Notes: generated by a model not told the origin, from the letters alone. DNA of 64,000 nt from an uncultured Candidatus Saccharibacteria bacterium (GCA_964651655.1 CAZYVS010000001.1:5132-69131), one strand, 5' to 3'. Positions 18,709-56,697 are shown, numbered from the stretch's first letter. Program-made: numbers and translations.

Positions 18709-19111
18709 ATTTGAAAATTTTATTTATAAACGCTAGTACAGGACTCACCACCGTGTGCAAAATCGAACTTTGCACACTACTGGTTTCTTCCCCGCTGACC
18801 TGCGCTTCGACGCTTGTCGAGGATTTAACGTTGGACAGATTTACTTCAACATTTTTTTCTATTACCGCATCCTCGCCGGCAGGCGCTGTTACAGTTTCAT
18901 CAATGTCGGTAACAACTTCCCCGTCAATTTCAGTGTAAATCTTTACATTGGCTTTACTCTCGCCTTGGATAATTTCTCCCCCCGAATTAACCAAATTACT
19001 ACCCGTAGAAGCTGATGATGAGACATTATTTATAATCTCCACGGCATAAAGCGGCCAGGCTATACCTAGCCCGAGAGCGACCGCAATAATTTTTGTAGAT
19101 AGACTTAACAT
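18683..19111 (-). CDS. hypothetical secreted protein
   Basis: Likely start 'MLSLSTKIIAVALGLGIAWPLYA' (signal/TM). Upstream extension in the ORF track overlaps a REP element and is unlikely to be coding. Confidence 0.4.
   Translation of the reverse strand: MLSLSTKIIAVALGLGIAWPLYAVEIINNVSSSASTGSNLVNSGGEIIQGESKANVKIYTEIDGEVVTDIDETVTAPAGEDAVIEKNVEVNLSNVKSSTSVEAQVSGEETSSVQSSILHTVVSPVLAFINKIFKYVFSIFTV
18753..18777. repeat. REP-like palindromic element (TGTGCAAAG...CTTTGCACA family), copy 1
   Basis: GTGTGCAAA-ATCGAAC-TTTGCACAC: 9-bp perfect arms. Intergenic. Confidence 0.6.
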
Positions 19112-19117
19112 CACTTG

Positions 19118-19140
19118 TGTGCAAAGCTCGGCTTTGCACA
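19118..19140. repeat. REP-like palindromic element, copy 2
   Basis: GTGTGCAAAGC-TCG-GCTTTGCACA, 10-bp arms. Directly upstream of ORF 18683..19111. Confidence 0.6.
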
Positions 19141-19267
19141 AACTTATTTCCCTCGAATTCCGCTCCATTTTGTTTCCCAAGGTTCGACCTTCAGAATTCC
19201 TAAGGTCGAACCTTTGATAATGGGGCGGCACCCGAAGGTCCCGTAGGACGGGACACTTCGAAAAAAA

Positions 19268-19858
19268 CTATCTTCGAACGCGAACGATGTTCGTGTTGAC
19301 AACATTTACAACTTCCGACCAAGCGCTTGCGTCACCTGTTTTAATTGACCCACCATTTCCGCCGTTGGCATCGCTGTCAGCGTCAGAGTGCCAGCCCTTG
19401 GCTTTGGCTTTGCTTTTAGCATCGCCCCCACTGGAAATGTTTCCTCCTGTCGATGCATTAGTTGTGACGGTGTTAGTCACATATGTGTCGTCATTATTCA
19501 CGTCAACATCAATGTCACCCTTGCACCCGCAAGGAGATTTAACCTTGACATCATTAGAGTTGACAACATTTGTCACATACGAATCTGCCCATGCATCACC
19601 AGTTGTGATTGAGCCGCCATTTCCACCGTTAGCGTCACTATCAGCGTCACCACCCCATTTGGCTTTGGCTTTGCTTTTAGCATCGCCCCCACTGGAAATG
19701 TTTCCTCCTGTCGATGCATTAGTTGTGACGGTGTTAGTCACATATGTGTCGTCATTATTCACGTCAACATCAATGTCACCGCTCTGGTGGGAGGCCAGTG
19801 CTGGTGAGGTAAAGCTCAAGAGAGCCACGATAGCAAAGATTGCTGTAATTTTCTTCAT
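19268..19858 (-). CDS. small secreted repeat protein (196 aa), paralog of the 15922..18708 module family, with internal tandem duplication
   Basis: Signal peptide. Two near-identical ~80-aa internal repeats: a 122-nt stretch at about 19394-19515 is repeated exactly at 19646-19767 (period 252 nt), beginning 'CTTGGCTTTGGCTTTGCTTTTAGCATCGCCCCCACTGGAAATG' in the first copy. C-terminal '...GGNGGSIKTGDASAWSEVVNVVNTNIVRVRR' is shared with neighbours. Confidence 0.55.
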   Translation of the reverse strand: MKKITAIFAIVALLSFTSPALASHQSGDIDVDVNNDDTYVTNTVTTNASTGGNISSGGDAKSKAKAKWGGDADSDANGGNGGSITTGDAWADSYVTNVVNSNDVKVKSPCGCKGDIDVDVNNDDTYVTNTVTTNASTGGNISSGGDAKSKAKAKGWHSDADSDANGGNGGSIKTGDASAWSEVVNVVNTNIVRVRR

Positions 19859-20051
19859 TTGTTTTCTTTACTTAATTAACTTGTAATTAATCAAAATTTT
19901 TCTTCGGTCCCTTAAGGGCTAACTGAAGAAAAATTTTGTTTTATCAACCTTGTCCCGCTAAAGGCGGGGCTTCTTGGATTCTTGGAACCCAAGAAGCAAG
20001 GGATGTTTCCCTCTCCCTCATTTCTTGGGTTCCAAGCAGATTTTTGAAGAA

Positions 20052-20882
20052 CTATCTTCGAACGCGAACGATATTGGTATTCACTGTGTTTGATACACCT
20101 GAATAGGCACTCGCGTTGCCGGTAACGACCGTGCCACCGTTGCCACCGTTAGCGGTACTGTTAGCATCACCACCATTTTTGGTTTTGGCCTTGCTCTTGG
20201 CATTGCCGCCTTGAGAGGCATTGTTGCCAGTTGAAGCCGAAGTGCTGACATTGTTGATGACAGTGGTGTTCTTGTTCTTGATGTCCACGTGAACATCACC
20301 GCCACAACATTTAGGCGGACAAGTCTTGACTTCAAATTTATATAAGAGTCCAGCTGGATTTGTACTTACGTTGTAAGTACCGACATTTTTTACTTCAATC
20401 CGTAGCGTATGATTCCCCGGTGTTACATTTGCCGTGAGATTATAAGGATCCTGTGTGGCGAGTGTGAAGTTCACGCTATTTATATCTCCCGCAACCGGCA
20501 CACCATCAATGAAGACCTCGTAGCTATTATCGGTGGCAATATCTAACTGCGCGGACAGTACCGTGCCAGAGACTGTAAAGTTCTGTTCGAACGCCACTAC
20601 TTCATTAGCCGCAGTCGCGCCGGATTTCCAAATCCAAGTCGCTCCCGGAATTGATGCCGTCCAAGCCGGGTGAACAGCCACCGCTGCTGGACTGCCTCCT
20701 ACAACAGTCGTGGTCAAGTCACTCACAGAAGTTTCAGTGACTGGGTTTGTGCATTCACAGGGAGGTGGAACAGGGTCGGCAAAAGCTGTTTTAATACCGA
20801 CTAGCAACATGGCGGACATGGCAATGATCGCCGCCATAATAATTATTTTGTGTAAATAATTATTTGTTTTATATGAATCCAT
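20052..20882 (-). CDS. small secreted repeat protein (276 aa), paralog of the same module family
   Basis: TM/signal. Cys-containing Ig-like middle region. C-terminal 'ASTGNNASQGGNAKSKAKTKNGGDANSTANGGNGGTVVTGNASAYSGVSNTVNTNIVRVRR' is nearly the same module and the same terminal RVRR as 19268..19858. Confidence 0.55.
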   Translation of the reverse strand: MDSYKTNNYLHKIIIMAAIIAMSAMLLVGIKTAFADPVPPPCECTNPVTETSVSDLTTTVVGGSPAAVAVHPAWTASIPGATWIWKSGATAANEVVAFEQNFTVSGTVLSAQLDIATDNSYEVFIDGVPVAGDINSVNFTLATQDPYNLTANVTPGNHTLRIEVKNVGTYNVSTNPAGLLYKFEVKTCPPKCCGGDVHVDIKNKNTTVINNVSTSASTGNNASQGGNAKSKAKTKNGGDANSTANGGNGGTVVTGNASAYSGVSNTVNTNIVRVRR

Positions 20883-20939
20883 ATTTTTAAGTTTATTAAT
20901 TATTAATTTTTATGATTATTAATATCTACATACGCAAAA

Positions 20940-20962
20940 GCCACACGAGAAAACCGTGTGGC
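20940..20962. terminator. hairpin with T-run (terminator-like)
   Basis: GCCACACG-agaaaac-CGTGTGGC followed by TTTTATTT on the + strand. Lies between mini-gene units. Confidence 0.35.
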
Positions 20963-21168
20963 TTTTATTTCTAACTTTTCTTTTGTGTGGGAAACTCGTT
21001 GCATATCGCAAACTCACATATCTTCCGGTTTCCCCTCGAAAGATATCGTCTCTGAATACCCCTGTATTTTATATTCAACCGTTTCCCTGTGTCAAACCTA
21101 CTTATCCACATTACGGACATCAGATTTTCATAATTGCGATATAATAGAAATGACTTAATTCTGTAAAG

Positions 21169-21248
21169 AAAAACTCCCAGAAGGGACGCTAGATGGGAAA
21201 CTGACCCCTTTCAGGGTAAGTAATCTAACGTCCCTTCTGGGAGTTTTT
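21169..21248. repeat. 80-nt structured element: 20-bp perfect inverted repeat with 40-nt internal hairpin-containing spacer
   Basis: AAAAACTCCCAGAAGGGACG ... CGTCCCTTCTGGGAGTTTTT. The spacer contains CTAGAT/ATCTAA and an ACCC-CTTTCA-GGGT inner stem. Located in an approximately 600-bp non-coding stretch. Confidence 0.5.
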
Positions 21249-21436
21249 GCATATATAATTCGTATGTATTTGGAAAGGGCTGATTTTTCTGTCAGAAGAA
21301 TACACTTATGACCTTTAGATGTCAAGGACTTTTCCAATCTGCATATTTTGACCCTTCAAAAATAACTCTGCATAATTTAAAAATAATCTGTCCTTTATCT
21401 TCTTACCCATACCCCCACACAAGACTTTTATAAAAA

Positions 21437-21466
21437 CGAAACGGGGGCGCGATTGGCCCCCGTTCG
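21437..21466 (-). terminator. intrinsic terminator of ORF 21480..21797
   Basis: ACGGGGGC / GCCCCCGT stem, extendable to 12 bp. Followed on the minus strand by TTTCGTTTTTAT. Confidence 0.5.
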
Positions 21467-21479
21467 AACCAGACACCAC

Positions 21480-21797
21480 TCATGTTCTCTCCCCTCTTTG
21501 GTAGAGAACGATTAATTTTCCATTTACCTTTCTGGAAATTAACTCGATATCGTTATCCCGAAAGGTCCAATAATTCACTTCCACCATACGAATCTTAGTC
21601 ACAACCCAAAGATCCGCTTTGGTGAAATGAAGTATTGCTACCGCAAGAAAAGGAGCGAGTAGAATGGTCTCACGTTGTTCCGGTTGTTCCGCCTTCATCT
21701 CTTCCTTCAGATCTTGCGGTATTTGAGAAACTTGCGCTGACACTACCGTTATGTCACCAATGGCGAGAAACAAGGCAATTATCACCATTTTTCTCAT
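21480..21797 (-). CDS. hypothetical small secreted protein
   Basis: 105 aa with an N-terminal signal peptide. Has its own downstream terminator. Confidence 0.35.
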   Translation of the reverse strand: MRKMVIIALFLAIGDITVVSAQVSQIPQDLKEEMKAEQPEQRETILLAPFLAVAILHFTKADLWVVTKIRMVEVNYWTFRDNDIELISRKVNGKLIVLYQRGERT

Positions 21798-21874
21798 ATG
21801 ACCTCCTTCCTTCTTTCTACCAATCTAAAACAAATAATACACTCGTATTTTATATTTACCACAAACAAAAAAGA

Positions 21875-21908
21875 GGGCCGAGGGCTGATAATCGCCAGCC
21901 CTCGGCCC
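21875..21908 (-). terminator. intrinsic terminator of ORF 21924..22226
   Basis: 13-bp perfect stem GGGCCGAGGGCTG / CAGCCCTCGGCCC. On the minus strand it is followed by TCTTTTTTGTTTG. Confidence 0.5.
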
Positions 21909-21923
21909 GTTCCCCATCCTCAT

Positions 21924-22226
21924 TCACACCTCCCCGAAATTAAGAGCTAACTGGACATGTACACTCTGTTTGGCGAGCGATTCCTCTTCCAAACAAGAAA
22001 TGTGATATAACCCACCCTTGTGACTTATGGCATTTCTGCCGGTTATGTCCACAAACTTCCGACACCATATGCATGGCGAGCTCTTAATGAAAAGCTCGTA
22101 GCAGTCGGGGTGCATCACCCCAATCGCCACTTCGACATGCCAATCAGACTCATCCACCTCCCTTATACATCTCGCGTAAGCGCAACAAGCCATAATATTA
22201 GCCTCCTTCCATTTTTGCTGAACCAA
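21924..22226 (-). CDS. hypothetical Cys/His-rich small protein
   Basis: 100 aa. Multiple Cys and His ('MACCAYARC', 'HPDCYE', 'CIWCRKF', 'HISC') suggest a metal-binding fold. Confidence 0.35.
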   Translation of the reverse strand: MVQQKWKEANIMACCAYARCIREVDESDWHVEVAIGVMHPDCYELFIKSSPCIWCRKFVDITGRNAISHKGGLYHISCLEEESLAKQSVHVQLALNFGEV

Positions 22227-22323
22227 TTTGAACTAAAATGTCTATTTTCATTATATACTTTATTATATAAAAGATTAAGCGGAGACAATATTGTCTCCGC
22301 TAGACCACCTCCTTTCTAACTCG

Positions 22324-22569
22324 TTAATACACGCTACCGGAGCGTCGCCGGGCCAACCTAGTCTGCGTAGACTTAAAGCGTTGCAGGATATCGCGGCGCC
22401 GGGTAAGCTTAACCTCTGAAATCTCAAGCCGTCTTGTTTCGAGCTTAAAATACCCGTTGTATCCGGAGTATCCTATGTTCGTATTCGGCACCGTTTGTCT
22501 GGCCTCATAAACTTTCCCATCTTTAACAAAAAAGATCTTGCATCCCAAGGGCCAATTCTGACGTTTCAT
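22324..22569 (-). CDS. hypothetical small protein, 'DGKVYE...RRRDILQRF' family, paralog A
   Basis: 81 aa. Strong SD 'GGAGGAAAAATG' and an upstream TATAAT. Shares motifs with ORF 22817..23059. Confidence 0.4.
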   Translation of the reverse strand: MKRQNWPLGCKIFFVKDGKVYEARQTVPNTNIGYSGYNGYFKLETRRLEISEVKLTRRRDILQRFKSTQTRLARRRSGSVY

Positions 22570-22670
22570 TTTTCCTCCGATCTTAACTTAAAAACCAAAA
22601 GTCTATTTTAATTATACACATATTGATTATACAAAAAAGAGACCGGATGGCCTCCGTATTGGATGGGGAA

Positions 22671-22697
22671 CCGAGAACCGGCATTGTCGGTTCTCGG
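22671..22697 (+). terminator. hairpin with T-run on plus strand
   Basis: CCGAGAACCG-gcattgt-CGGTTCTCGG followed by CTCCATTTTTTA. Confidence 0.35.
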
Positions 22698-22816
22698 CTC
22701 CATTTTTTAGGTAGGAAGGGGCTGGGATTCCCCCTGGCAAGGAGGTAGATATGAATCACCTCCTCTCTTAGCAAGTTCCGATACCCATTCCAACACCCAT
22801 GGGGTCGTCCATAAAT

Positions 22817-23059
22817 TCATCGTACCAACTTTCGTCGGTGCTTCCCAACCCCAAAGCGTTGCAGAATATCGCCACGTCTCGCTGGCTTAATCCGTTCTGT
22901 TTTGGGTTGTCTTTCAACTCGAACGGAGAAATCAGTGACACTCCAGTGATATAAAACGGAGAATTTGTGCTCATACACCCTCCCATCTGTTCCCTTACGA
23001 AACTCCTTACAGGGAGATGCCTCACTTTTTTCTTCTTCGTCATCCTTCTCCTCCTTCAC
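22817..23059 (-). CDS. hypothetical small protein, 'DGRVYE...RRGDILQRF' family, paralog B
   Basis: 80 aa. Shares 'DG[KR]VYE' and 'RRxDILQRF' with 22324..22569. The overlapping alternative frame 22768..23043 is not conserved at the paralogous locus. Confidence 0.35.
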   Translation of the reverse strand: MKEEKDDEEEKSEASPCKEFRKGTDGRVYEHKFSVLYHWSVTDFSVRVERQPKTERIKPARRGDILQRFGVGKHRRKLVR

Positions 23060-23261
23060 TTTCTATATTTCCTCCCCTCTTTTTTCCCATTCCACCAGTA
23101 TGCAACATCCAGCCAATACCACTGGATGTTGGCGCGCAGAACCCTCCAGAGCGCTCTCATGTTTCCTCCTCCTTTCCCTATATAATCCTTCATCTACGGC
23201 AGTCTAACCCCATAATACACCTGCACTTTCTTATCTGCTACTAGAGTTGAAGTGGGTTGAT

Positions 23262-23582
23262 TTATTTAACACGCAGACGAGCTGCGATAGCAAAGTGTAT
23301 AAAATATCTCTCAAGGTCTGACAGACTCGTCTTGTATTTGTTCTCTCCCCAAATAATATCGCAGAAAATTTCTCTAGCTCTTCCCACCTCTCGCAACCGA
23401 CCAAGCCATCTTCTATCTCTAAGAGTTAAGTCAAAGAGTTCTAAGGCTCTATTGGCCGCACTGAAAAAACCATTAGAATCCTTACCATCAAGTTTAGCCA
23501 CTCTCCCAACTTCACTACCGATGTTACCCATTTGCTCAATAAGAGAAAATTTGTCCCAACTTTCCTTAAGACTTTCTCGCAT
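23262..23582 (-). CDS. hypothetical all-alpha small protein (possibly MazG-like NTP pyrophosphohydrolase fold)
   Basis: 106 aa. Second gene of a two-gene minus-strand cassette with a 5-bp spacing. 'IEQMGNIGSEVGRVAK' and 'ALELFDLTL' loosely resemble MazG-like EExxE/ExxD helices. Confidence 0.3.
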   Translation of the reverse strand: MRESLKESWDKFSLIEQMGNIGSEVGRVAKLDGKDSNGFFSAANRALELFDLTLRDRRWLGRLREVGRAREIFCDIIWGENKYKTSLSDLERYFIHFAIAARLRVK

Positions 23583-23587
23583 AAAAC

Positions 23588-23953
23588 TTACTGTTTTACT
23601 CTAGTATTTACAATTGATATTATTTTTTTTCGTACGGCTTCATCTTCTACTCCACGGCTAGTATTACCCGAAAGTGGTTTCAGATTTATCATGGAGTCAA
23701 ACTCAATACATTGATTTCCAGTTTTATCAAGATTTAAATTGATACCCCAAGTATTGTCTCTTTTAGAACCCTTCGTTTCAAGTAATAAAGTCTCGAGGTC
23801 AGAGTGGAATTCTCCCCCCAAAGCCATAATTTCCTGTTCTACATCAATGACTGCTTTGATAATAGTGATAAATTGTTCATGAGCGAGAGTTTTGAGCGTT
23901 TCAAGAGTAATGCTATCCTCAACAATTTTAATCCTAGTTTTATCGTTATCCAT
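23588..23953 (-). CDS. hypothetical protein
   Basis: 121 aa. First gene of the two-gene cassette. No recognisable motif. Confidence 0.35.
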   Translation of the reverse strand: MDNDKTRIKIVEDSITLETLKTLAHEQFITIIKAVIDVEQEIMALGGEFHSDLETLLLETKGSKRDNTWGINLNLDKTGNQCIEFDSMINLKPLSGNTSRGVEDEAVRKKIISIVNTRVKQ

Positions 23954-23968
23954 GATTGATATTATACC

Positions 23969-25333
23969 TCACGATTTAAGTATTTTAATTTTCGCGCCAA
24001 TTTTGTTTAATCGCCCCACGATATCCTCATAACCGCGCTTGATGGCATAAACGTTTCGTAAGATTGACTTCCCTTCCGCCCCAAGCATGGCCACCATAAG
24101 CATCACCGCCGGCCGAAGCGCCGGAGGACAAACAATCTGCGCGCCCTTGAGACGAGACGGCCCGTCAACAAAAACGCGATGAGGGTCAGCCAAGCGAACG
24201 GTCGCTCCAAGGCGATTAAGCTCGATAAAGAAAACGGCTCTGTCCTCCCACATCCAATCATGTATCAGCGTGCTACCCTCAGCTTGCGTGGCGATCGGGA
24301 CAAAAAAGGGGAGGTTGTCGGTATTGATGCCCGGGTACGGCTGGGCGTGAATCTTGTCGTGAAGCGCTGTTAATTTGGAAGGTTTGATGATCAGATCAAT
24401 AAGTTTGGTCCGGCCATTGGCGGCTAAATATGTTTTGGATATATCGTAACGCAATCCCATTTTTTCAAGCTTAAGAAGTTCCAGTTTAAGAAAATCAATG
24501 GGCGCTCTTTTAATCACAAGTTTAGAATGGGTCACGATGGCCGCGGTGATAAAAAGCATGGCCTCTATAGGGTCCTCGCTGTTGGAATATTCAATATCCT
24601 TTTTGATATTTGGATTACCCTCTATCACAAGCCTCTTTGTCCCGATACCATCTATTTTTATTCCCAATTTCTGTAAAAAATAACATACCTCAAGCACCAT
24701 ATAATTCTGTTGGGCGAAATCTATAGTGGTTTGCTGCGGCCCGCCTGTCGGCGAGGCAGGCAGAACAGCCGCCCGCAAGATGGCGTTGGTGGTGCCGGTA
24801 TCAGACGCTTCATACATCACCACCTCTTTTTTCGCCCGCCCATTTTGTGTTTGTGAGATGTGGTAGAAGTTTTCCTTGGTTACGATTTTTAACCCCAAAT
24901 CTTCAAGCGCGTAGCGGTGAGCGGCGATAGTTCTCTCTCCCATTTGACAGCCACCGATGTGAGGTAATTTGAAAGATTTTAACCTGTTAGAAAGCGGTCC
25001 GATAAGCATCAGAGCAGAACGAATTTTGCCAGTGGAATGACTGTTGATTTGTGAGATAGAAAAGGTTTTCGGCGGTTCAATGGTGAGAGTATTTTTGTCA
25101 ATCCATACCACTCTGATACTCAAACTCTTGAAAATTTCTATAAATCGGTTGACTTCCTCGATTCGGGGAATATTTTTTAAAGTAGTTTGGCCGCGATTCA
25201 CAAGAGCGGCGGCAAAGAGATGGGTGGCGCCGTTTTTGGAAGCGTTAGTGGTAATAGAACCGGAAAGTTTGTGTCCGCCCTCTATTTCAAAGTCGTCTTT
25301 TTCATCCCGCCAATTAATCGAAGTGGGGGCCAT
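23969..25333 (-). CDS. murA: UDP-N-acetylglucosamine 1-carboxyvinyltransferase
   Basis: 454 aa. 'ITTNASKNGATHLFAAALVNRGQTTLKNIPRIEEVNRFIEIFKSLSI' and 'PHIGGCQMGERTIAAHRYALEDLG' (active-site Cys loop) match the MurA/EPSP-synthase fold. Confidence 0.85.
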   Translation of the reverse strand: MAPTSINWRDEKDDFEIEGGHKLSGSITTNASKNGATHLFAAALVNRGQTTLKNIPRIEEVNRFIEIFKSLSIRVVWIDKNTLTIEPPKTFSISQINSHSTGKIRSALMLIGPLSNRLKSFKLPHIGGCQMGERTIAAHRYALEDLGLKIVTKENFYHISQTQNGRAKKEVVMYEASDTGTTNAILRAAVLPASPTGGPQQTTIDFAQQNYMVLEVCYFLQKLGIKIDGIGTKRLVIEGNPNIKKDIEYSNSEDPIEAMLFITAAIVTHSKLVIKRAPIDFLKLELLKLEKMGLRYDISKTYLAANGRTKLIDLIIKPSKLTALHDKIHAQPYPGINTDNLPFFVPIATQAEGSTLIHDWMWEDRAVFFIELNRLGATVRLADPHRVFVDGPSRLKGAQIVCPPALRPAVMLMVAMLGAEGKSILRNVYAIKRGYEDIVGRLNKIGAKIKILKS

Positions 25334-25375
25334 CGTCCGTACAATATATCATACGGCGGGCAGATTTAAGGAGTC

Positions 25376-25795: not shown

Positions 25796-25807
25796 ACCCC
25801 TATCCTA

Positions 25808-26620: not shown

Positions 26621-26836
26621 ATTCGTAATTATTTTAATTGAATCTTAATACTTAATAATATACAGTATACACCATATCTCAATCGGCGCTAGGCTTGGAA
26701 TTAGTCAGTCTCTTTTACCGATTACGTTATTTCTTGCCTATAGGCATAAGATAACGTATTGACATTTATACCAAGCGAACTGGAAGCGGGATGCGGTATA
26801 TAACTTTTTGTTATAACACGTGGTAGAATTAACATT

Positions 26837-27253: not shown

Positions 27254-27255
27254 TT

Positions 27256-29383: not shown

Positions 29384-29430
29384 AAGGATTTTTGATTACT
29401 TTTATTCTACCGTTTTGACGTTCCTTGGAA

Positions 29431-30072
29431 TCATTTATTTTTATACTTTTCGGGTAAGAAACTGTACTCAAGGAAAGTTGTACTTAATAAGTCAGATCCA
29501 TTTCTGGGTGACGCTAAACGTGCAATGTAAAACCTCATCCCATCTACAATCTCTTTGAAGGAATAAATCTGCTCATCTAACGTTTTCTGGTCGACTATTT
29601 TTTTTGCTTCTGATTTCTTTATTGTGTTATTAGTAATATTTTGAACCCTCATCACAGCATGACCGTGCAGCAGAAGGTTTCGCATTTTCCGAAAGTTTTT
29701 TAACCGAGAGATGAGATTTTTATACTTTTCTCTTTCCTGCAAATCCTCTTCTTTGAAGTCAAAATTAAAAGTGTAAAGAAAGACTGACGTCTTATCAATA
29801 AAGTTTATGCTGTCTAGGTGCTTGAATATGTCTAGATCCGGGCTGAACGAATGATCGCGCACTAACTCACGGAAAAAGGCATTCATGCCACTTTCTAAAA
29901 TCAAGTGGAGTGAGATTAGTGAATCGACGATATCTTCTTCGGTAAGTTCAGTGTTATTAAGAAGAGGTACGATCCTTTTCACATTCACAGACCAAACTAT
30001 ATGTTGCTCATCAGTGATGGATATAAGTGTTCCGTATTGTAGGTTTGCACCTTCTGAATCTTGTGTGTACAT
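29431..30072 (-). CDS. hypothetical protein with HEPN-like R-x4-HGH motif (Abi-like?)
   Basis: 213 aa. 'FRKMRNLLLHGHAV' fits the HEPN Rx4-6H consensus seen in Abi/Swt1-type RNases. Otherwise unrecognised. Confidence 0.3.
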   Translation of the reverse strand: MYTQDSEGANLQYGTLISITDEQHIVWSVNVKRIVPLLNNTELTEEDIVDSLISLHLILESGMNAFFRELVRDHSFSPDLDIFKHLDSINFIDKTSVFLYTFNFDFKEEDLQEREKYKNLISRLKNFRKMRNLLLHGHAVMRVQNITNNTIKKSEAKKIVDQKTLDEQIYSFKEIVDGMRFYIARLASPRNGSDLLSTTFLEYSFLPEKYKNK

Positions 30073-30117
30073 AACGATGGTTGTTTATGAGGATTCAATG
30101 TTTCTCGGACTCCGAAC

Positions 30118-30366
30118 CTATCTCAAGATGAATAAAGCAAATTTCTTTTCTCGCCTCCATCCTTTAATCTCCGCTTCTCTTTGCCGTGCCTCTTTCAATG
30201 TCTTAAAAGCTTCTTGGTACTTCAATATAACTGGTCTACGCAGTTTTGTGTAATGTGCACCCCACTTCGAATCATTATGTTGTTCTACTCTCCTAACAAG
30301 ATTATTCGTACAACCGACATAGAGAGATTTATCTGCACATTCTAAGATATAGACGAAATACGACAT
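30118..30366 (-). CDS. GIY-YIG nuclease superfamily small protein (UPF0213/YhbQ-like), copy 1
   Basis: 82 aa. 'YFVYILECADKSLYVGCTNNLVRRVEQHN' matches the GIY-(10)-YVG-x-T-x-N-x-x-RR-x-x-H GIY-YIG core. Confidence 0.75.
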   Translation of the reverse strand: MSYFVYILECADKSLYVGCTNNLVRRVEQHNDSKWGAHYTKLRRPVILKYQEAFKTLKEARQREAEIKGWRREKKFALFILR

Positions 30367-30467
30367 GAGAACTTTAGGCCCTTCACTTTCGTTCAGGGAC
30401 TTCTTCTCTCCTGTATATGCTGGCCGCAGGCACTGATGAGCCTTCGTCCAGCGAAGGTGAAGAAGTG

Positions 30468-30538
30468 CTGCGGGGGTAGGAGTCGGACCTACATACGCAG
30501 CTTCAAAGGCTGCTGTCCTGCCGTTAGACGACCCCGCA
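30468..30538 (-). tRNA. tRNA-Gln (anticodon TTG)
   Basis: Hand-folded on the minus strand. Acceptor TGCGGGG/CCCCGCA. D-stem GTCT/GGAC. Anticodon stem GCAGC/GCTGC with loop CTTTGAA (anticodon UUG). T-stem GTAGG/CCTAC with loop TCCGACT. Lies between two GIY-YIG genes. Confidence 0.7.
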
Positions 30539-30540
30539 AA

Positions 30541-30786
30541 TTATTGCAGAAATAGGGTTTTGAGAAACTTTCTACCATTTGCTGTCTTAAGCTGTTTTTC
30601 CCTTTTTCTAGCTTCAGTAAGGTTATCATATTGCTCATGGTAAATCATTACCCATGGTTTATGTCTCTTGGTATAGAAATGCTTACCAGAATTATGTTCA
30701 GCAAGTCTTCTGTCTAAGTTATTGGTCATTCCCACATAACTCTTTTGAACTGAACAACTCTTTAAAACATAAATGTAATAAACCAT
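30541..30786 (-). CDS. GIY-YIG nuclease superfamily small protein (UPF0213/YhbQ-like), copy 2
   Basis: 81 aa. 'YYIYVLKSCSVQKSYVGMTNNLDRRLAEHN' GIY-YIG core. Stop codon is 2 nt before the 5' end of tRNA-Gln(TTG). Confidence 0.75.
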   Translation of the reverse strand: MVYYIYVLKSCSVQKSYVGMTNNLDRRLAEHNSGKHFYTKRHKPWVMIYHEQYDNLTEARKREKQLKTANGRKFLKTLFLQ

Positions 30787-30798
30787 AATAAAAAGGCG

Positions 30799-30920
30799 TG
30801 TCCTACCCGCCTCGCGTCGACTCGCCCTGAATTGGGCGAAGTGAGCAAGTCCCCGCGAGTCGAGGCGGGCCGTTAGACCAGCTTCGACTAGATGTCGAAT
30901 CTAGGCGAGCGACCCCGCAA
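30799..30920 (-). pseudogene. disrupted partial copy of tRNA-Gln(TTG) 5' region carrying two palindromic-element insertions
   Basis: Minus strand reads TTGCGGGGTCG-[31-nt insert with CTAGAT/ATCTAG stem]-GTCTAACGGC-[approx 62-nt GC-rich palindromic insert CCGCCTCGACTCGCGGGG...GCGAGTCGACGCGAGGCGG]-GTAGGACA. Compare with the intact tRNA TGCGGGGTCGTCTAACGGCAGGACA. Sits immediately upstream of GIY-YIG copy 2. Confidence 0.5.
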
Positions 30921-31005
30921 ATTACACCTTGATAGTACGAATTATTTCCACTTTTAGCAAATTTAATTGATGATTTTAGAATTCAGATTCTGATATAATA
31001 GAATT

Positions 31006-31221
31006 ATGGATGATAACGTCCATTATAAATTCTCAAGTCATTTGTGCGGTCATTGTGGCGGACCGGCGCCGGATTGGAAGTGCCCGAAGTGCGGTCTGAC
31101 TTCTTACGTCTTTGACCCCGACCATTTTAAAAAATGTAAGCGCACGGGAAAAATGGAAGCTCTCTGTCAAAAATGCGATGAAGCCGAATCCCAATGTGTC
31201 TGTCCGATACAAAATAATTAA
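31006..31221 (+). CDS. small Cys-rich zinc-ribbon protein
   Basis: 71 aa with CxxC pairs ('CGHCGG', 'CPKCG', 'CQKCD', 'CVCP'). Confidence 0.4.
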   Translation: MDDNVHYKFSSHLCGHCGGPAPDWKCPKCGLTSYVFDPDHFKKCKRTGKMEALCQKCDEAESQCVCPIQNN

Positions 31222-32267
31222 ACGGATTTAATACAATCGGCCAACGCAATCTCCAGAGCCAATTCCGGAATAGAGGTGCGGCCGGAATCTTCATAGGCAG
31301 TAATAAATGACAGTAGAACTTCGGCGGTCAGATCTGAACCGGCTTTTGCCGCTAATTTCTGAAGGAAGACGAAATCATCTTCGGAAACTTGTTTTTTAAT
31401 ATAATCATCCATACCCGCTTTAAGCCGAAGCAAGAAAAGAAAGCGCAGCCGTTCAAGGATAAGCTTGGCAAAAAGCTTCATCTCGGCATTGGCCGCTACG
31501 GCGTTCTGGATTGCCCTCATCCCCTTTTCGATATCTTTGTCAATAATTGATTCAAGTATATTTCTAACCAACTCCGCTTTCGGTGCGCCTGTCACTATTT
31601 CCACTTCTTCGCGAGTAATTTTTTTATTGTTTGTTGAGGAAAACACTTTTTCCAAAATTCCATGTGCATCACGAAAGGAACCGTCACCCAAAATAGCCAC
31701 TAGCTCCGCCGCCGCCGGCTCCAGAGTAAAGCCTTCCTTTTTCGCCACCGAGAGAGCAAAAGTTTTGAGCATCACTTGATTTGGTTGTCTGAAAGAAAAA
31801 GTCTGACAACGAGAAACTACCGTCTCCGGCACCTTTTCTAATTCGGTTGTCGCCAACACAAACACGACATGTTGCGGCGGTTCCTCAAGAGTTTTGAGAA
31901 AAGCGTTCCAGGCATCCTTGGTAAGCATATGCACCTCATCAATAATATAAACCTTGTAATGTGAATCAAAGGGCAGAGTGTTGACGGATTCTCGAATCTC
32001 GCGGACATCATCAATACCACGATTAGAGGCGGCGTCCATCTCGACCAAATCGTTGGCTGAAGTGCCAATCTCTCGTGATAAGATTCTCGCCATCGAAGTC
32101 TTGCCGGTACCGCGCGAACCGGAGAAGAGATAAGCGTGCGAAATATTACCGAGTTTGATTGCTCCTTCCAAAACTCTGACGATATGATCTTGACCGATAA
32201 CATCCTTAAAATGTTGCGGACGATATTTGCGATACAGCACGCCTCCGGTTTTAGTATCTTTCTTCAT
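31218..32267 (-). CDS. dnaX: DNA polymerase III subunit gamma/tau (short form)
   Basis: 'YRKYRPQHFKDVIGQDHIV...HAYLFSGSRGTGKTSMARIL' clamp-loader AAA+ N-terminus. 'IIDEVHMLT' Walker B. SRC motif 'TVVSRCQ'. Confidence 0.85.
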   Translation of the reverse strand: MKKDTKTGGVLYRKYRPQHFKDVIGQDHIVRVLEGAIKLGNISHAYLFSGSRGTGKTSMARILSREIGTSANDLVEMDAASNRGIDDVREIRESVNTLPFDSHYKVYIIDEVHMLTKDAWNAFLKTLEEPPQHVVFVLATTELEKVPETVVSRCQTFSFRQPNQVMLKTFALSVAKKEGFTLEPAAAELVAILGDGSFRDAHGILEKVFSSTNNKKITREEVEIVTGAPKAELVRNILESIIDKDIEKGMRAIQNAVAANAEMKLFAKLILERLRFLFLLRLKAGMDDYIKKQVSEDDFVFLQKLAAKAGSDLTAEVLLSFITAYEDSGRTSIPELALEIALADCIKSV

Positions 32268-33280
32268 ACCGGTATTATACGATTTTTTATGAATTCGGAT
32301 ATAATTGCCTCTACCTCACTCGCGTTATTGGTATTCATTAGTTTAACGCGCAAATCTCCTATTCCATCAATGCCAGATAAATAGGCCTTAAAATGTTTTT
32401 TCATCACAGCAAAACTTTTATGCTCGCCGAGTAATTCTTCAAACAATTTTATATGCTTCACCAACACTCGTAACTTTTCTTCTATAGAAGGGGGTTTGTC
32501 CAAGTCGGCAAACAACCACGGATTACCGAAGATGGCGCGTCCAAACATTATTCCGTTACAACCCGTTTCTTCAATCCGCATTCTTGCTTCTTTTAAATTT
32601 CTTACATCACCATTACCCAAGATTAAAGTTTCTTTGCCGGAAGCATTTCGAATCTCGACGGCGCGTTTGACAAATTCCCACCGGGCCGATACCTTGGACA
32701 TCTCTTTCCTAGTGCGAGCATGGATAGTCACTACGGCCACATCTTCTTCAAGAATTTCTGGTAACCAATTTTCAAGCTCTGGTTTGTTATAGCCGATACG
32801 AGTCTTCACAGATACCGGTAGTGAGCCCGCGCCTTCTTTGGCTGCGTTGATAAGTTCTCTAGCCAGCAACACATTCTTCATAAGCGAAGCTCCGGCGCCT
32901 TGTTTCTCCACATTTTTGTCCGGGCAACCCATATTGATGTCAACTCCGTCAAAGCCGAGCTCGCGTGCGAGCTCGGCGGCTTTCTTCATATTTTCGGGCA
33001 CAGAGGTAAAAAATTGCGCTACTATTGGTCGTTCCGCTTCACTATATTCAAGACTTTTCAAAAGCTTTTTTCTGCCTGCTTCAGGCGCTAATGCTAAACC
33101 ATCAGCGGAAACAAACTCTGTCCACATCACATCGGGCCCGCCTCGCCTCGGCTCGCCATCGCGAGTCGAGGCGGACTTACTCACTTCTGCAATAATACGT
33201 CGAAAAGCCGCGTCCGTCACATCGGCCATGGGCGCCAGTACAAAAATTGGTTTACTTAATTTTCCCCAAAATCCAAGCAT
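32264..33280 (-). CDS. dus: tRNA-dihydrouridine synthase
   Basis: 'FVLAPMADVTDAAFRRI', 'NMGCPDKNV' (catalytic Cys) and 'VSVKTRIGYN' match the Dus TIM-barrel. Contains an in-frame insertion 'SKSASTRDGEPRRGGP' encoded by a GC-rich palindromic element. Confidence 0.85.
   Translation of the reverse strand: MLGFWGKLSKPIFVLAPMADVTDAAFRRIIAEVSKSASTRDGEPRRGGPDVMWTEFVSADGLALAPEAGRKKLLKSLEYSEAERPIVAQFFTSVPENMKKAAELARELGFDGVDINMGCPDKNVEKQGAGASLMKNVLLARELINAAKEGAGSLPVSVKTRIGYNKPELENWLPEILEEDVAVVTIHARTRKEMSKVSARWEFVKRAVEIRNASGKETLILGNGDVRNLKEARMRIEETGCNGIMFGRAIFGNPWLFADLDKPPSIEEKLRVLVKHIKLFEELLGEHKSFAVMKKHFKAYLSGIDGIGDLRVKLMNTNNASEVEAIISEFIKNRIIPV
33137..33195. repeat. GC-rich palindromic element (CGCCTCG...GCGAGTCGAGGCGG family) inserted in-frame in dus
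   Basis: CGCCTCGCCTCGGCTCGCC-atc-GCGAGTCGAGGCGG, followed by GGACTTACTCACTTC. A related copy lies at 30805..30880 (CCGCCTCGCGTCGACTCGCC...GGCGAAGTGAGCAAGTCC...GCGAGTCGAGGCGGG). Confidence 0.55.
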
Positions 33281-33318
33281 ATATCCACTCTCTACTATTT
33301 ACTGTTTACTGTCTACTA

Positions 33319-34134
33319 TTATTTAAACTTGTAGAATACTTTATTTGTCGTGCGCAAGTCCAGATACAAAACTTTTTTAAGAAAATCCTTCTGAGCTTTG
33401 ATAGAATCATCAGAGAGAAAAGCCTCTAGATTCGAGTGCAACAAAACAGGATCATCCCCTCTTCTCCATATCAATTGTCCGCCATTAGGCAAAAGCAAAT
33501 TATAATCGTCCGCGGTTATCTTCATAGCCGTTGGCTGAAGATTTAATGTTGGCAAAATTTTTATAAATCCCAAAAGCGACTCAAAGTTCTCCGCAGGAAT
33601 AAGTTGCTTGCCTATAGGATTGCCGATCGGCTCTTCCGTACTATAGACAAAGTAAACTCCGTTTGAAAAAGAGGGGGCGGGCGCAAAGATAAATCCTCCC
33701 TTATCCACAAAGAAACATTCATCTTCAATACAATACAGAGCGAAGGGCATACGCTCTTCAACATTTATGACAAGAGTTTGAAATTTGTCTAGGTTTAAAT
33801 CAACAGATCGAAGTCTTGGAAATTTTTCAATGAGACTTTGCTTAATAGCGCGCCGCGGATAGATAAACGCATTGGCGCGAGGAATCATCCAAAGATAATG
33901 ATTGTCAATCAAACTTTGAACAGCTTGGGTCATCTCTTCCCTATCTGCTACATTTTCTCCAGTTATCATTACCGCTGTAATCAGAAATTTTTCCAAACGA
34001 GAAAGATAAATCAGCGTAAAAACTATAGTCAAGACGCCAATTAGAACAAGGGCAAATTTTATACGCCTTCTTTTTTTCTTTTTCTGATAAAATCCGGCCG
34101 AATTTATAACCCTGCCGCTCGAAACTATTTTCAT
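33319..34134 (-). CDS. ftsQ: cell division protein FtsQ/DivIB-like (POTRA domain)
   Basis: Basic N-terminus then TM ('IKFALVLIGVLTIVFTLIYL'). POTRA-like stretch 'LRSVDLNLDKFQTLVINVEERMPFALY...FVDKGGFIFA'. Confidence 0.55.
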   Translation of the reverse strand: MKIVSSGRVINSAGFYQKKKKRRRIKFALVLIGVLTIVFTLIYLSRLEKFLITAVMITGENVADREEMTQAVQSLIDNHYLWMIPRANAFIYPRRAIKQSLIEKFPRLRSVDLNLDKFQTLVINVEERMPFALYCIEDECFFVDKGGFIFAPAPSFSNGVYFVYSTEEPIGNPIGKQLIPAENFESLLGFIKILPTLNLQPTAMKITADDYNLLLPNGGQLIWRRGDDPVLLHSNLEAFLSDDSIKAQKDFLKKVLYLDLRTTNKVFYKFK

Positions 34135-34180
34135 AAAGAAAGTATATCAAACCTCTCAATAGACCATACAAGCCCTCTTA

Positions 34181-34205
34181 CTGTGCAAAGCTCGACTTTG
34201 CACAG
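34181..34205. repeat. REP-like palindromic element, copy 3
   Basis: CTGTGCAAAG-CTCGA-CTTTGCACAG, 10-bp perfect arms. Immediately 3' of the REP-associated transposase gene. Confidence 0.65.
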
Positions 34206-34868
34206 TTATGGCAATAGTTCTTTGGTAATTTCCTTAGCTGGACTACTGGAAACAAATTTTTTATACGACGAAATGCTTTTTTCTTTAGTATAACGATCCG
34301 TTATAATATCCGTTACTAATAATCCTTCAAACCTATTTTTATCAATACAATCTTGATAACTTGACCATGGATAGAGATGCTCTTTTCCCGTCCATCCTTT
34401 TATTTCGCATGGATGTTTATGAATGTATGCCGAGGTATGCATTAATTGTCTGTCTTCGCCAATATGGACACTTTTATACGGACCTTGAAATAAGTGCCCG
34501 CTTTTTTCATGTCTAGTATTAAAATACTTTGTATATGCAGTCAAAACCCTGTGCATATATTTAGAAATGCCATTATCAACTAATTCACGAATAATTATAT
34601 GAAAATGGTTTGGCGCTAAACAGAAAACTACTAGTTCCACAATCCTCTTTTTTAGGATATCATTCTTTAACTCATCCGTAATGTGCAAAGTCGATCTTTG
34701 CACATTTTGGCGTATTTCTCTGCTTATATTTTTTATAACCACTTCTCCTTGAAAAGCCATGAGGAGAAATAAAAATCTTAAGCGATCTTGATCTGTTTCA
34801 AAGATTGGTTGTTTTTGCATTCCCCTGTTAAAGACATGCAAATATTCTCCGGGCGCATGAAATCGCAT
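34206..34868 (-). mobile_element. IS200/IS605-family Y1 transposase, REP-associated tyrosine transposase (RAYT)-like
   Basis: 220 aa. 'YLHVFNRGMQKQPIF' N-terminus. HUH motif 'NHFHIIIRE'. Catalytic-Tyr region 'TAYTKYFNTRHEKSGHLFQGPYKSVHI'. Flanked on both sides by REP-like palindromes of one family and carries one copy in-frame. Confidence 0.7.
34680..34706. repeat. REP-like palindromic element, copy 4 (inside the RAYT ORF, in frame)
   Basis: AATGTGCAAAG-TCGAT-CTTTGCACATT, 11-bp perfect arms. It encodes 'NVQRSTLHI' within the transposase. Confidence 0.6.
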
Positions 34869-34894
34869 ACCTCTATTGTATACCTATATTTATT

Positions 34895-34917
34895 TGTGCA
34901 AAGTCGAGCTTTGCACA
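34895..34917. repeat. REP-like palindromic element, copy 5
   Basis: TGTGCAAAG-TCGAG-CTTTGCACA. Immediately upstream of the RAYT start. Confidence 0.65.
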
Positions 34918-56440: not shown

Positions 56441-56461
56441 CAAAAATCACGAAGTCCAATT

Positions 56462-56673: not shown

Positions 56674-56697
56674 CAAGCTATGATGATGTAGCTTTAT

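What the first reader, a model, noticed from the sequence alone, without database searches (positions are those of the whole stretch)
18753..34917. REP-like palindrome family (TGTGCAAAG-N3-7-CTTTGCACA) with its cognate REP-associated tyrosine transposase
Five copies of a 23-27-nt hairpin with 9-11-bp perfect arms lie at 18753, 19118, 34181, 34680 and 34895. Three of them bracket or sit inside the only HUH/Y1 transposase gene in the window (34206..34868: 'HFHIII', 'GHLFQGPY'). That pairing is the hallmark of RAYT/REP systems, in which a domesticated IS200-like enzyme mobilises REP hairpins. The other two copies sit at the boundaries of the secreted-protein gene cluster.
Basis: partly seen in the sequence, partly recalled or inferred. 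Interest (0 to 1): 0.6.

Follow-up and report, generated by a model that had tools for sequence, protein, structure and literature searches.

The report
Hairpin repeats with their own transposase-like gene
An ultra-small (candidate phyla radiation) bacterium carries a transposase-derived gene surrounded by, and containing in frame, copies of a 23-base DNA hairpin that also sits elsewhere in the genome; it is a new variant of the known REP/RAYT system, and gene and hairpin change together across many related bacteria.

Summary
Five copies of TGTGCAAAG-N5-CTTTGCACA lie at 18754 (one mismatch), 19118, 34182, 34682 and 34895; shuffles give none. Three belong to the only Y1/HUH gene (34206-34868, minus strand): one upstream, one in frame inside it, one abutting the stop codon.

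In 52 protein-selected loci with an exact flanking palindrome, the upstream copy is in 48 of 50, the downstream in 34 of 45 and the internal in 32 of 52. The palindrome sequence differs between lineages but matches among the copies of one locus. The encoded peptide changes with it (VQSSTLH, VKHSVFN, VQHSMLN).

The upstream hairpin overlaps the -35 region or spacer of a conserved promoter whose -10 box ends about 6 nt before the ATG.

Solo copies are few (at most 9 exact per genome), mostly intergenic, yet often in frame inside housekeeping genes.

In-frame REPs, also within RAYT genes, are published for other phyla. I rate this a new variant of a known kind, of moderate interest.

The parts
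34206..34868 (-). 220-aa Y1/HUH tyrosine-transposase-like gene (RAYT-like). HUH is at N87-H88-F89-H90, GHLFQG at 124-129, the catalytic Tyr in Y148-IHKHP, and WSS at 168-170.
34895..34917 (.). Upstream (U) hairpin copy, ending 26 nt before the ATG. Its 3' arm on the coding strand carries the -35-like hexamer TTTGCA (34902-34897).
   Evidence: Promoter-like match. The same placement recurs in homologous loci.
34875..34880 (-). -10-like box TACAAT, ending 6 nt before the ATG at 34868. This suggests a leaderless or near-leaderless transcript.
   Evidence: A -10 box with at least 5 of 6 matches ends 5-9 nt before the ATG in 67 of 91 homologous genes, against 78 of 347 control ORFs.
34680..34706 (.). 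Internal (I) hairpin copy (core 34682-34704, 11-bp stem), read in frame as N-V-Q-R-S-T-L-H-I (residues 55-63).
   Evidence: It sits at the same codon position in homologues and co-varies with the flanking copies.
34180..34206 (.). Downstream (D) hairpin copy (core 34182-34204, 11-bp stem), abutting the stop codon. Its loop is the reverse complement of the loop of the U copy.
19118..19140 (.). Solo hairpin copy, ending 6 nt upstream of the ATG (19111) of a small minus-strand ORF.
18754..18776 (.). Solo hairpin copy with one arm mismatch. It lies in the 3' part of the same small ORF, read in frame as V-Q-S-S-I-L-H, 46 nt before the start of the 928-aa ORF at 15922-18708.
18683..19111 (-). Small ORF bracketed by the two solo copies. 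It has a hydrophobic N-terminus and no Pfam match.

Best explanation
This is a REPtron-type system of candidate-phyla-radiation (Patescibacteria) bacteria.

The enzyme and its sites. A chromosomal HUH/Y1 enzyme, seen once per locus and related to IS200-type transposases and closest in fold to E. coli TnpA_REP/RAYT, has a cognate 23-nt hairpin: a 9-10 bp stem, a TCG/CGA loop and a TGT...ACA foot. By analogy with TnpA_REP, the enzyme would bind the hairpin folded on single-stranded DNA and cut and rejoin DNA next to it. That would copy or replace hairpins at a low rate. This step is inferred, not shown.

Where the hairpins sit. They occupy three fixed places at the gene:
- over the -35 region or spacer of its promoter (U);
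- in frame at codons 55-63 (I);
- just after the stop codon (D).
A few solo copies lie elsewhere, mostly between genes but also in frame in loops of housekeeping proteins.

Co-evolution. Enzyme and hairpin change together, and all copies at a locus are kept matched. The internal copy therefore dictates which amino acids are encoded there.

Likely role of U. I think it most likely that U lets the enzyme repress its own leaderless-type promoter. That too is inferred.

What is shown: the anatomy, the conservation, the co-variation and the fold. What is inferred: binding, cleavage, mobility and autoregulation.
For: Presence and significance of the five copies.

The protein:
- Pfam Y1_Tnp.
- Invariant HUH histidines and Tyr in 84 homologues.

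Family-wide anatomy:
- 3630 homologues, the named ones from CPR/Patescibacteria.
- Among 52 protein-selected loci with an exact flanking palindrome, U is present in 48 of 50, D in 34 of 45 and I in 32 of 52.
- More than 15 different arm sequences occur, each shared by the copies of its own locus.

Co-evolution:
- Protein distance correlates with arm difference, rho 0.46, reached by 0 of 999 permutations.
- Two paralogues (63% identical) on one contig each have their own variant.
- Internal hairpin: 80.8% of cells are paired against 65% in shuffles and 31-48% in slid controls; 115 cells change on both sides against 47.

Domesticated rather than selfish behaviour:
- One gene in the window.
- The downstream neighbour gene is conserved beside it in three relatives, at 61-64% identity, while the Y1 protein is 85-89% identical.

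Solo copies:
- The exact palindrome scan gave 90 loci, about 13 of them lone hits in non-CPR genomes; at most 9 exact copies occur in any one genome.
- 27 of 73 solo copies lie inside ORFs, where 87.6% would be expected by chance (P 5e-24).
- A TrmD alignment shows the hairpin-coded peptide within a segment 8 residues longer than the loop of most homologues.

Promoter overlap.

DNA level rather than RNA level: G.T and A.C mismatches are equally frequent on the coding strand.
Against: - No biochemical evidence: binding, cleavage and mobility are all inferred from homology.
- Copy number is far below that of classical REPs.
- The canonical 5' GT[AG]G tag is absent; the flanks read AAAN...NTTT.
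- The protein scores 30.4 bits against NCBIfam's RAYT equivalog model, whose cut-off is 80.
- A profile of the family finds no TnpA_REP by sequence in the PDB.
- Its motifs (NHFH, FQ, YIHKNP, SS) resemble subclass 2.1 of Quentin et al. 2018, for which no REPs were found (PMC6006769).
- A perfectly symmetric site is equally compatible with a double-stranded operator bound by a dimer. The covariation test cannot separate the two.
- Gene neighbourhoods differ between distant homologues. That could mean occasional movement of the whole unit.
- I could not count copies in the source genome beyond the 64-kb window.
Confidence: 0.72

Rival explanations
1. It is an autonomous IS200/IS605-type insertion sequence. 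U and D would be its left-end and right-end hairpins, the whole unit would transpose, and the solo hairpins would be relics or miniature derivatives.
For: Hairpins sit at both ends of a Y1 gene, as in IS200/IS605. Gene neighbourhoods differ between distant homologues. One contig carries two copies.
Against: - The window holds one copy, and 97 of the 98 loci with the gene hold one.
- The two copies in L116 are only 63% identical and have different hairpins.
- The neighbouring gene is conserved in relatives and is more diverged than the Y1 gene itself.
- The Tyr motif is Y---NP/HP (class 2), not the Y---Q of IS200 (PMC6006769).
- The protein is 220 aa with a WSS tail.
- The fold is closer to TnpA_REP than to IS608 or ISDra2 TnpA.
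- U and D are the same symmetric palindrome, with random loop orientation, unlike distinct left and right ends on one strand.
Confidence: 0.08
2. The palindromes are host cis-elements, such as double-stranded operators or roadblocks, bound by a dimeric regulator. That regulator could be the Y1 protein itself, having lost transposition. The system would then be purely regulatory or structural, and the copies would spread by ordinary mutation and recombination.
For: - The site has perfect two-fold symmetry, and G.T versus A.C mismatches are symmetric.
- U is fixed over the -35 region or spacer of a conserved promoter.
- Copy number is low.
- The protein is very strongly conserved.
Against: - Copies lie in frame inside unrelated housekeeping genes. 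In TrmD the hairpin-coded peptide lies in a segment 8 residues longer than the loop of close homologues. That calls for an insertion or copying mechanism.
- The catalytic HUH and Tyr residues are invariant, which argues that catalysis is retained.
- Arms of 9-10 bp run contiguously up to a 3-nt loop. This is hairpin geometry, not two half-sites with a spacer.
- Solo copies have no promoter elements at a fixed offset.
Confidence: 0.14
3. The hairpins act in RNA, as terminators, mRNA stabilisers or translational attenuators, and are only coincidentally near the Y1 gene.
For: They form stable RNA hairpins of -12 to -17 kcal/mol. Many solo copies lie downstream of genes, in tandem or convergent intergenic regions. 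The flanks are A-rich on the 5' side and T-rich on the 3' side.
Against: - There is no wobble bias: G.U is not favoured over A.C on the coding strand.
- The terminator scan finds no T-run.
- No Rfam family matches.
- Co-variation with the protein and paralogue-specific variants are not expected for RNA elements unrelated to it.
- U lies upstream of the likely transcription start.
Confidence: 0.04

Closest known systems
REPtron: RAYT/TnpA_REP with REP or BIME repeats (E. coli YafM/RayT, PDB 4ER8; Nunvar 2010; Ton-Hoang 2012; Bertels and Rainey)
   Same: - A low-copy HUH/Y1 gene flanked by its own palindromic repeats, which also occur elsewhere in the genome, mainly between genes.
- Enzyme and repeat co-evolve, and paralogues have their own repeat families.
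- The Tyr motif is Y---NP in the family consensus (YIHKHP in this window).
- The protein evolves slowly.
   Different: - No GT[AG]G tag.
- The stem is short and perfectly symmetric, with a conserved TCG loop.
- At most 9 exact copies were found per genome, rather than tens to hundreds.
- The protein falls below NCBIfam's RAYT cut-off and is not detectably similar to TnpA_REP by sequence.
- It carries an extra ~33-aa segment between helix A and helix B that holds an in-frame REP.
- The host is CPR; I found nothing published on such a system there.
TnpA_Y1 subclass 2.4 / Bertels group 4 (Quentin et al. 2018, PMC6006769)
   Same: REP copies lie inside the tnpA_REP gene without breaking the reading frame. 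'Double-foot' symmetric REPs occur.
   Different: [quoted passage not shown] Here the copy lies N-terminal to HUH, at one fixed codon position, and co-varies with the flanking copies. The motifs also differ: WQ and YIxNNP there, FQ and YIHKNP here.
TnpA_Y1 subclass 2.1 / TIRYT (Quentin 2018; Di Nocera 2013)
   Same: The motif signature NH[YF]H, FQ and Y[IV]H-NP, a proximal tail with SS, and a length of about 220-240 aa.
   Different: No REPs were found for subclass 2.1 (long terminal inverted repeats in some members), and it has a C-terminal HTH/DnaA_C-like domain. Here there are clear REP hairpins and no Pfam HTH match. Assignment by phylogeny was not done.
IS200/IS605 TnpA (IS608, ISDra2)
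   Same: An HUH/Y1 fold that recognises subterminal hairpins on single-stranded DNA, with hairpins at both ends of the gene.
   Different: Those proteins have a Y---Q motif, are about 150 aa long, occur in many identical copies, and have distinct left and right ends on one strand. None of this is seen here.
Intragenic REPs and Rickettsia palindromic elements (Ogata 2000; Di Nocera 2013, PMC3733652)
   Same: Palindromic repeats inserted in frame into housekeeping genes and tolerated in protein loops. Host genes of the same kinds recur (DNA ligase, UvrC, tRNA synthetases).
   Different: RPEs are 100-150 bp long and have no known transposase. Here the unit is about 23-31 nt, encodes only 7-10 residues, and has a cognate Y1 gene.

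Membership tests
RAYT / TnpA_REP (class 2 TnpA_Y1) | HUH motif and catalytic Tyr in a Y---NP motif | tested here: met
   NHFH at residues 87-90. The Tyr motif is Y148-IHKHP in the window and YIHKNP in the family consensus. H88, H90 and Y148 are invariant in 84 sequences.
RAYT / TnpA_REP (class 2 TnpA_Y1) | Gene flanked by its own palindromic repeats (REPtron) | tested here: met
   Window. Among 52 protein-selected loci with an exact flanking palindrome, U is present in 48 of 50 and D in 34 of 45.
RAYT / TnpA_REP (class 2 TnpA_Y1) | The same repeats dispersed in the genome, mainly extragenic | tested here: met
   Two solo copies in the window. Up to 9 exact copies per MAG. Only 37% of solo copies lie inside ORFs, against 87.6% coding sequence.
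RAYT / TnpA_REP (class 2 TnpA_Y1) | High copy number of REPs (tens to hundreds) | tested here: not met
   At most 9 exact copies per genome in GTDB representatives. About 1 solo copy per 40 kb of flank. The MAGs are incomplete and only exact matches were scanned.
RAYT / TnpA_REP (class 2 TnpA_Y1) | 5' GT[AG]G tetranucleotide at the hairpin foot | tested here: not met
   The flanks of 125 copies give AAAN, with no GTAG enrichment. The conserved foot is TGT...ACA, inside the stem.
RAYT / TnpA_REP (class 2 TnpA_Y1) | Single or low copy and vertically inherited | tested here: inconclusive
   One gene in the window, and one per locus in 97 of 98 loci. Synteny with a more diverged neighbour holds in three relatives. 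Whole-genome copy numbers and a species-tree comparison were not possible.
RAYT / TnpA_REP (class 2 TnpA_Y1) | Enzyme and repeat co-evolve; paralogues have their own repeat family | tested here: met
   Mantel rho 0.46, reached by 0 of 999 permutations. L116 paralogues: TGTTCAACAC versus TGGTCAACAC.
RAYT / TnpA_REP (class 2 TnpA_Y1) | Passes the curated sequence model (NCBIfam NF047646, REP_Tyr_transpos) | tested here: not met
   30.4 bits against a cut-off of 80.
RAYT / TnpA_REP (class 2 TnpA_Y1) | Fold of TnpA_REP | tested here: met
RAYT / TnpA_REP (class 2 TnpA_Y1) | Binds and cleaves its REP hairpin on single-stranded DNA | not testable with these tools
   Needs biochemistry.
IS200/IS605 TnpA (subclass 1.1) | Y---Q motif, core-only protein of about 150 aa, several near-identical copies per genome | tested here: not met
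   The motif is YIHKHP/NP and the protein is 220 aa with a WSS tail. No duplicate copies were seen; the only paired genes are 63% identical.
TnpA_Y1 subclass 2.4 | In-frame REP inside the gene, between HuH and Y; WQ and YIxNNP motifs | tested here: not met
   An in-frame REP is present, but N-terminal to HUH (residues 55-63, with HUH at 88-90). The motifs are FQ and YIHKNP (PMC6006769).
TnpA_Y1 subclass 2.1 / TIRYT | NH[YF]H, FQ, Y[IV]HLNP and SS motifs; C-terminal HTH domain; no REPs | tested here: inconclusive
   The motifs fit. Pfam finds no HTH, and REPs are present. No phylogeny against reference sequences was done.

The most novel reading that the evidence does not exclude
The internal hairpin may be a self-referential specificity module. 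Residues 55-63 are encoded by the hairpin and lie in a family-specific surface insertion. If they help the enzyme recognise that same hairpin, one change in the DNA palindrome would alter both the site and its reader. That would explain why the three copies and the peptide change together across the family.

A weaker version: the enzyme uses the U and I copies to excise, invert or replace the promoter-proximal 200 nt, acting as an on/off switch.
Probability: 0.07. Interest if true: 0.9.

Novelty: new variant of a known kind. Interest (0 to 1): 0.55.

Why it matters
- It extends REP/RAYT systems to the candidate phyla radiation. Two full-text searches found no paper describing one in these very small, densely coding genomes.
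- It is a clean natural example of a DNA secondary structure constraining a protein sequence. The amino-acid pairs Q..L-H, K..F-N and K..F-D co-vary because their codons base-pair.
- The many lineage-specific pairs of enzyme and hairpin, including two paralogues in one genome, form a ready-made panel for working out how HUH/Y1 enzymes read hairpins. That is useful for HUH-tag and single-strand DNA editing tools.
- The fixed overlap of one hairpin with the gene's own promoter gives a testable model for how a domesticated transposase is kept at a low level.
- In-frame copies in essential genes show how repeats persist where there is almost no intergenic space.

Tried and rejected
- Rfam at gathering thresholds: only tRNAs, nothing at the hairpins.
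- Terminator scan around the gene: none of the hairpins qualifies, because no T-run follows.
- RNA-level structure: G.T versus A.C mismatches on the coding strand are symmetric, 17 vs 16, 15 vs 16 and 9 vs 7. I therefore dropped the mRNA-element reading.
- A fixed relative orientation of the U, I and D copies, as for left and right IS ends or REP inverted pairs: loop orientation is random, with same and inverted about equally frequent.
- A GTAG or CGTC tag at the hairpin foot: absent.
- Variable extension of the palindrome as a target-duplication signature: it is largely explained by the conserved AAAN/NTTT flanks.
- Solo copies as portable -35 elements: no -10 box at a fixed offset next to 139 solo flanks.
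- Sequence search of the PDB with two family profiles: only weak hits to ISDra2 TnpA and none to TnpA_REP. Only the fold comparison places the protein.
- Own-variant versus other-variant solo copies in the protein-selected loci: roughly 8-fold denser (9 in 359 kb against 73 in 22.8 Mb). The control is contaminated by related variants, so I use this only qualitatively.
- Homologues of the small ORF between the two solo copies: my two local tblastn attempts used the wrong reading frame and I did not pursue it.
- One script printed junk because of an empty pattern; it was rerun correctly.

Full report
**1. The observation**

The pattern TGTGCAAAG-N3-7-CTTTGCACA occurs exactly four times, at 19118, 34182, 34682 and 34895; 100 shuffles gave none. 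A fifth copy with one mismatch lies at 18754. The 9-mer half-site occurs nowhere else in the 64 kb.

All loops are 5 nt, made of TCGA plus one extra base on one side. That extra base gives each otherwise symmetric copy an orientation. The copies at 34180-34206 and 34680-34706 have 11-bp stems. As single strands the hairpins are predicted to be stable: -8 to -12 kcal/mol as DNA and -12 to -17 as RNA.

The only Y1 gene is the 220-aa ORF at 34206-34868 on the minus strand. It matches Pfam Y1_Tnp with E 9e-10. On the coding strand:
- one hairpin ends 26 nt before the ATG (U);
- one is read in frame as NVQRSTLHI, residues 55-63 (I);
- one abuts the stop codon (D).

The other two copies lie 341 nt apart and bracket one small ORF with a hydrophobic N-terminus. 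They do not mark the two ends of a gene cluster. The window is chromosomal: it also encodes SerRS, Dus, a DNA polymerase III subunit and ten tRNAs.

**2. The protein**

A database search found 3630 homologues at E <= 0.001. Every one of the best 120 that a source names comes from CPR/Patescibacteria (Zambryskibacteria, Nomurabacteria, Paceibacteria, Parcubacteria).

- 4ER8_A by Foldseek, E 4.5e-6;

By sequence the family is remote. It scores 30 bits against NCBIfam's RAYT model, whose cut-off is 80. Profiles of the family find no TnpA_REP in the PDB.

Residues 39-76 form a family-specific segment between the first helix and the strand that precedes HUH. The hairpin-coded residues lie at the end of a helix and in a loop of lower confidence.

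**3. Anatomy across the family**

A scan of one genome per species for the exact palindrome gave 90 loci. About 13 are lone hits in unrelated bacteria with random loops, roughly the number expected by chance. The rest are CPR genomes. Several of them repeat the window's three-copy spacing of about 215 and about 500 nt.

To avoid selecting on the hairpin, I then fetched loci by protein similarity alone:
- 80 metagenome loci at 41-89% identity;
- three distant homologues looked up individually.

Most of these loci carry a U copy (centre 30-50 nt before the ATG), an I copy (centre at nt 175 of the gene) and a D copy (5-35 nt after the stop). Among the 52 non-redundant loci with an exact flanking palindrome, U is present in 48 of 50, D in 34 of 45, I in 32 of 52, and all three in 24. 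Some divergent subclades have only U and D.

**4. Co-variation**

The palindrome differs between lineages, yet the copies at one locus share it. Examples are TGTGCAAAG, TGTTAAACAC, TGTCAAACAC, TGTTCAACAC, TGAGCAACAT, TGTCCAAAG, TGGTCAAAG, TGTCCTAAG, TGTTGGACAC, TGTTAGACC and GACTAGACAC, among others. Three features stay constant: the TGT...ACA foot, the TCG/CGA loop and the 23-nt size.

Supporting tests:
- Protein distance correlates with the difference between flanking arms, rho 0.46, reached by 0 of 999 permutations.
- One contig holds two paralogues, 63% identical and 2.6 kb apart. One uses TGTTCAACAC and the other TGGTCAACAC.
- A codon-anchored alignment of 65 distinct internal regions was scored against a 10-bp stem:
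  - 80.8% of cells are paired, against 65% in shuffles (0 of 500 reach the observed value) and 31-48% when the partner columns are slid;
  - 115 cells change on both sides, against 47 in shuffles.

The protein follows the DNA. The peptide is VQ..LH with GTGCAA/TTGCAC, VK..FN with GTTAAA/TTTAAC, VK..FD with GTCAAA/TTTGAC, and VQ..LN or VQ..LD likewise. The loop flips between homologues, turning SST (AGT TCG ACT) into SRT (AGT CGA ACT).

G.T and A.C mismatches are equally common on the coding strand. This argues for a DNA-level constraint rather than an RNA-level one.

**5. Promoter overlap**

In the window a -10-like TACAAT (34880-34875) ends 6 nt before the ATG. A -35-like TTTGCA (34902-34897) lies in the 3' arm of the U hairpin.

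Across the family, a -10 box with at least 5 of 6 matches ends 5-9 nt before the ATG in 67 of 91 genes (36 are a perfect TATAAT). The figure for control ORFs is 78 of 347 (odds ratio 9.6, P 3e-19).

The 3' end of the U hairpin lies 14-17 nt before that box in 32 loci, so its arm sits at the -35 position; in some variants the arm reads TTGACA or TTGAAC. In 17 loci it lies 0-3 nt before the box, over the spacer.

This suggests a leaderless-type promoter with the cognate hairpin built into it, and hence autoregulation. It is an inference from consensus matches, not a demonstration. Solo copies show no -10 box at a fixed offset.

**6. Solo copies**

Exact copies number at most 9 per genome. In the protein-selected loci there is about one own-variant solo copy per 40 kb of flank.

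Of 73 solo copies in CPR loci, 27 lie inside ORFs, where 87.6% would be expected by chance (P 5e-24). The intergenic ones lie mostly between tandem or convergent genes. The flanks read AAAN-[23 nt]-NTTT and carry no GTAG.

The intragenic copies are in frame in genes confirmed by Pfam: LigA, MetRS, MnmA (five genomes, at the same site), TsaD, UvrC, TruB, TrmD, KsgA, an RsmI-like methylase and a dihydroorotate dehydrogenase-family protein. Two reading frames dominate: VQS[SR][TA]LH and CAK[SFL][ND]FAQ. This palindrome has no stop codon in any of the six frames.

An alignment of the TrmD protein with 120 homologues shows the hairpin-coded peptide within a segment 8 residues longer than the loop that most homologues have there. 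A solo copy of another variant lies in frame in a 2475-aa ORF.

Next to the hairpins, arms are sometimes duplicated in tandem, even inside coding sequence. Examples are VQSVQSVQSSTLH in L010, VQSSTLHTLH in L067 and VQPSVLNMLN in L119. I cannot explain this.

**7. Domesticated or selfish?**

The window has one gene, and 97 of the 98 loci that hold the gene have one. In three relatives the 271-aa downstream neighbour is conserved beside it at 61-64% identity, while the Y1 protein is 85-89% identical. The gene therefore sits at a stable position and evolves more slowly than its neighbour, as Bertels et al. 2017 reported for some RAYT groups (PMC5581495). Gene neighbourhoods do differ between distant homologues.

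**8. Comparison with what is known**

The architecture is that of a REPtron. Quentin et al. 2018 described in-frame REPs inside tnpA_REP genes for subclass 2.4. [quoted passage not shown] Di Nocera et al. 2013 described intragenic REPs in repair and translation genes of other phyla (PMC3733652). So neither feature is new in kind.

What differs here:
- The host clade. Two full-text searches found no description of RAYT/REP in CPR.
- A motif signature like subclass 2.1, for which no REPs had been found.
- A short, fully symmetric hairpin without a GTAG tag.
- Very low copy number.
- An internal copy at a fixed position N-terminal to HUH, kept matched to the flanking copies through many changes of sequence.
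- A flanking copy embedded in the gene's own promoter.

**9. Mechanism and verdict**

I take this to be a domesticated RAYT-like enzyme that recognises its hairpin on single-stranded DNA. It would occasionally copy or replace hairpins, which keeps U, I, D and the solo copies matched. It probably limits its own expression through U. Binding, cleavage, mobility and autoregulation are all inferred.

The main rival keeps the same parts but makes the Y1 protein a non-mobilising hairpin or operator binder. The symmetric site cannot exclude that reading. The segment in TrmD that close homologues lack and the intact catalytic residues argue against it.

The most novel reading still open is that the hairpin-coded peptide helps recognise the hairpin. 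I give that a low probability.

It is a new variant of a known kind, with interest 0.55.

Noticed in passing
window 15183-15195, 19179-19214, 40001-40044, 59379-59415: A second small palindrome family, AAGGTC(N)GACCTT. It mostly occurs as doublets about 10 nt apart, for example CCAAGGTTCGACCTTCAGAATTCCTAAGGTCGAACCTTTGA at 19177. There are 11 matches with up to 2 mismatches, against 1.9 expected. One doublet lies 38 nt from the solo hairpin at 19118.
   Followed up: partly
L033 (TsaD), L066 (UvrC), P0214 (TrmD): The peptide GGSAFGGK/GGSALGR recurs in loops of unrelated housekeeping proteins of other CPR genomes. It could be encoded by the GC-rich palindrome TCCGCC-TTT-GGCGGA (back-translated, not checked in the DNA), which would make it a second in-frame palindromic element. 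The same TrmD loop carries still other short inserts: PHVRHVG in P0124 and P0146, and NPPAGGG.
   Followed up: no
L010:2191-3276, L067 (gene 678-1349), L119, and flanks of many solo copies: One hairpin arm is tandemly duplicated directly next to the palindrome, also inside coding sequence (VQSVQSVQSSTLH, VQSSTLHTLH, VQPSVLNMLN). An extra half-site lies within 14 nt in 18 of 250 flanks. The mechanism is unexplained; slippage or aberrant cleavage and rejoining are possibilities.
   Followed up: partly
L116:3982-4636 (+) and 7303-7953 (-): Two Y1 paralogues, 63% identical and arranged convergently 2.6 kb apart. Each has its own palindrome variant, and only the first has the internal copy.
   Followed up: yes
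loci L091-L176, 347 control ORFs: 22% of ordinary ORFs of at least 150 aa in these CPR contigs also have a -10-like box with at least 5 of 6 matches ending 5-9 nt before the first ATG. This hints that leaderless transcripts may be common in these organisms.
   Followed up: no
L039:4459-5115 (Zambryskibacteria MHWZ01) and proteins P0011, P0050, P0056, P0101, P0108: Some close homologues are called as products of 169-177 aa. In L039 the reading frame is interrupted within the region that aligns to the full protein. These may be truncated or decaying copies, or a different start may have been called.
   Followed up: no
window 47213-47234 and 58857-58884: Two perfect palindromes share the core ACGATATATCGT: AACTTACGATATATCGTAAGTT and GCTAACATACGATATATCGTATGTTAGC. 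That is two matches against 0.2 expected.
   Followed up: partly
window 56370-56866: A cluster of five tRNA genes (Gly, Lys, Cys, Leu, Leu) within 500 nt.
   Followed up: no
L083:1613-2746: A solo hairpin copy lies in frame (CAKSNFAQ) in a 377-aa ORF that looked like a reverse transcriptase on reading its sequence. Pfam was not run on it.
   Followed up: no
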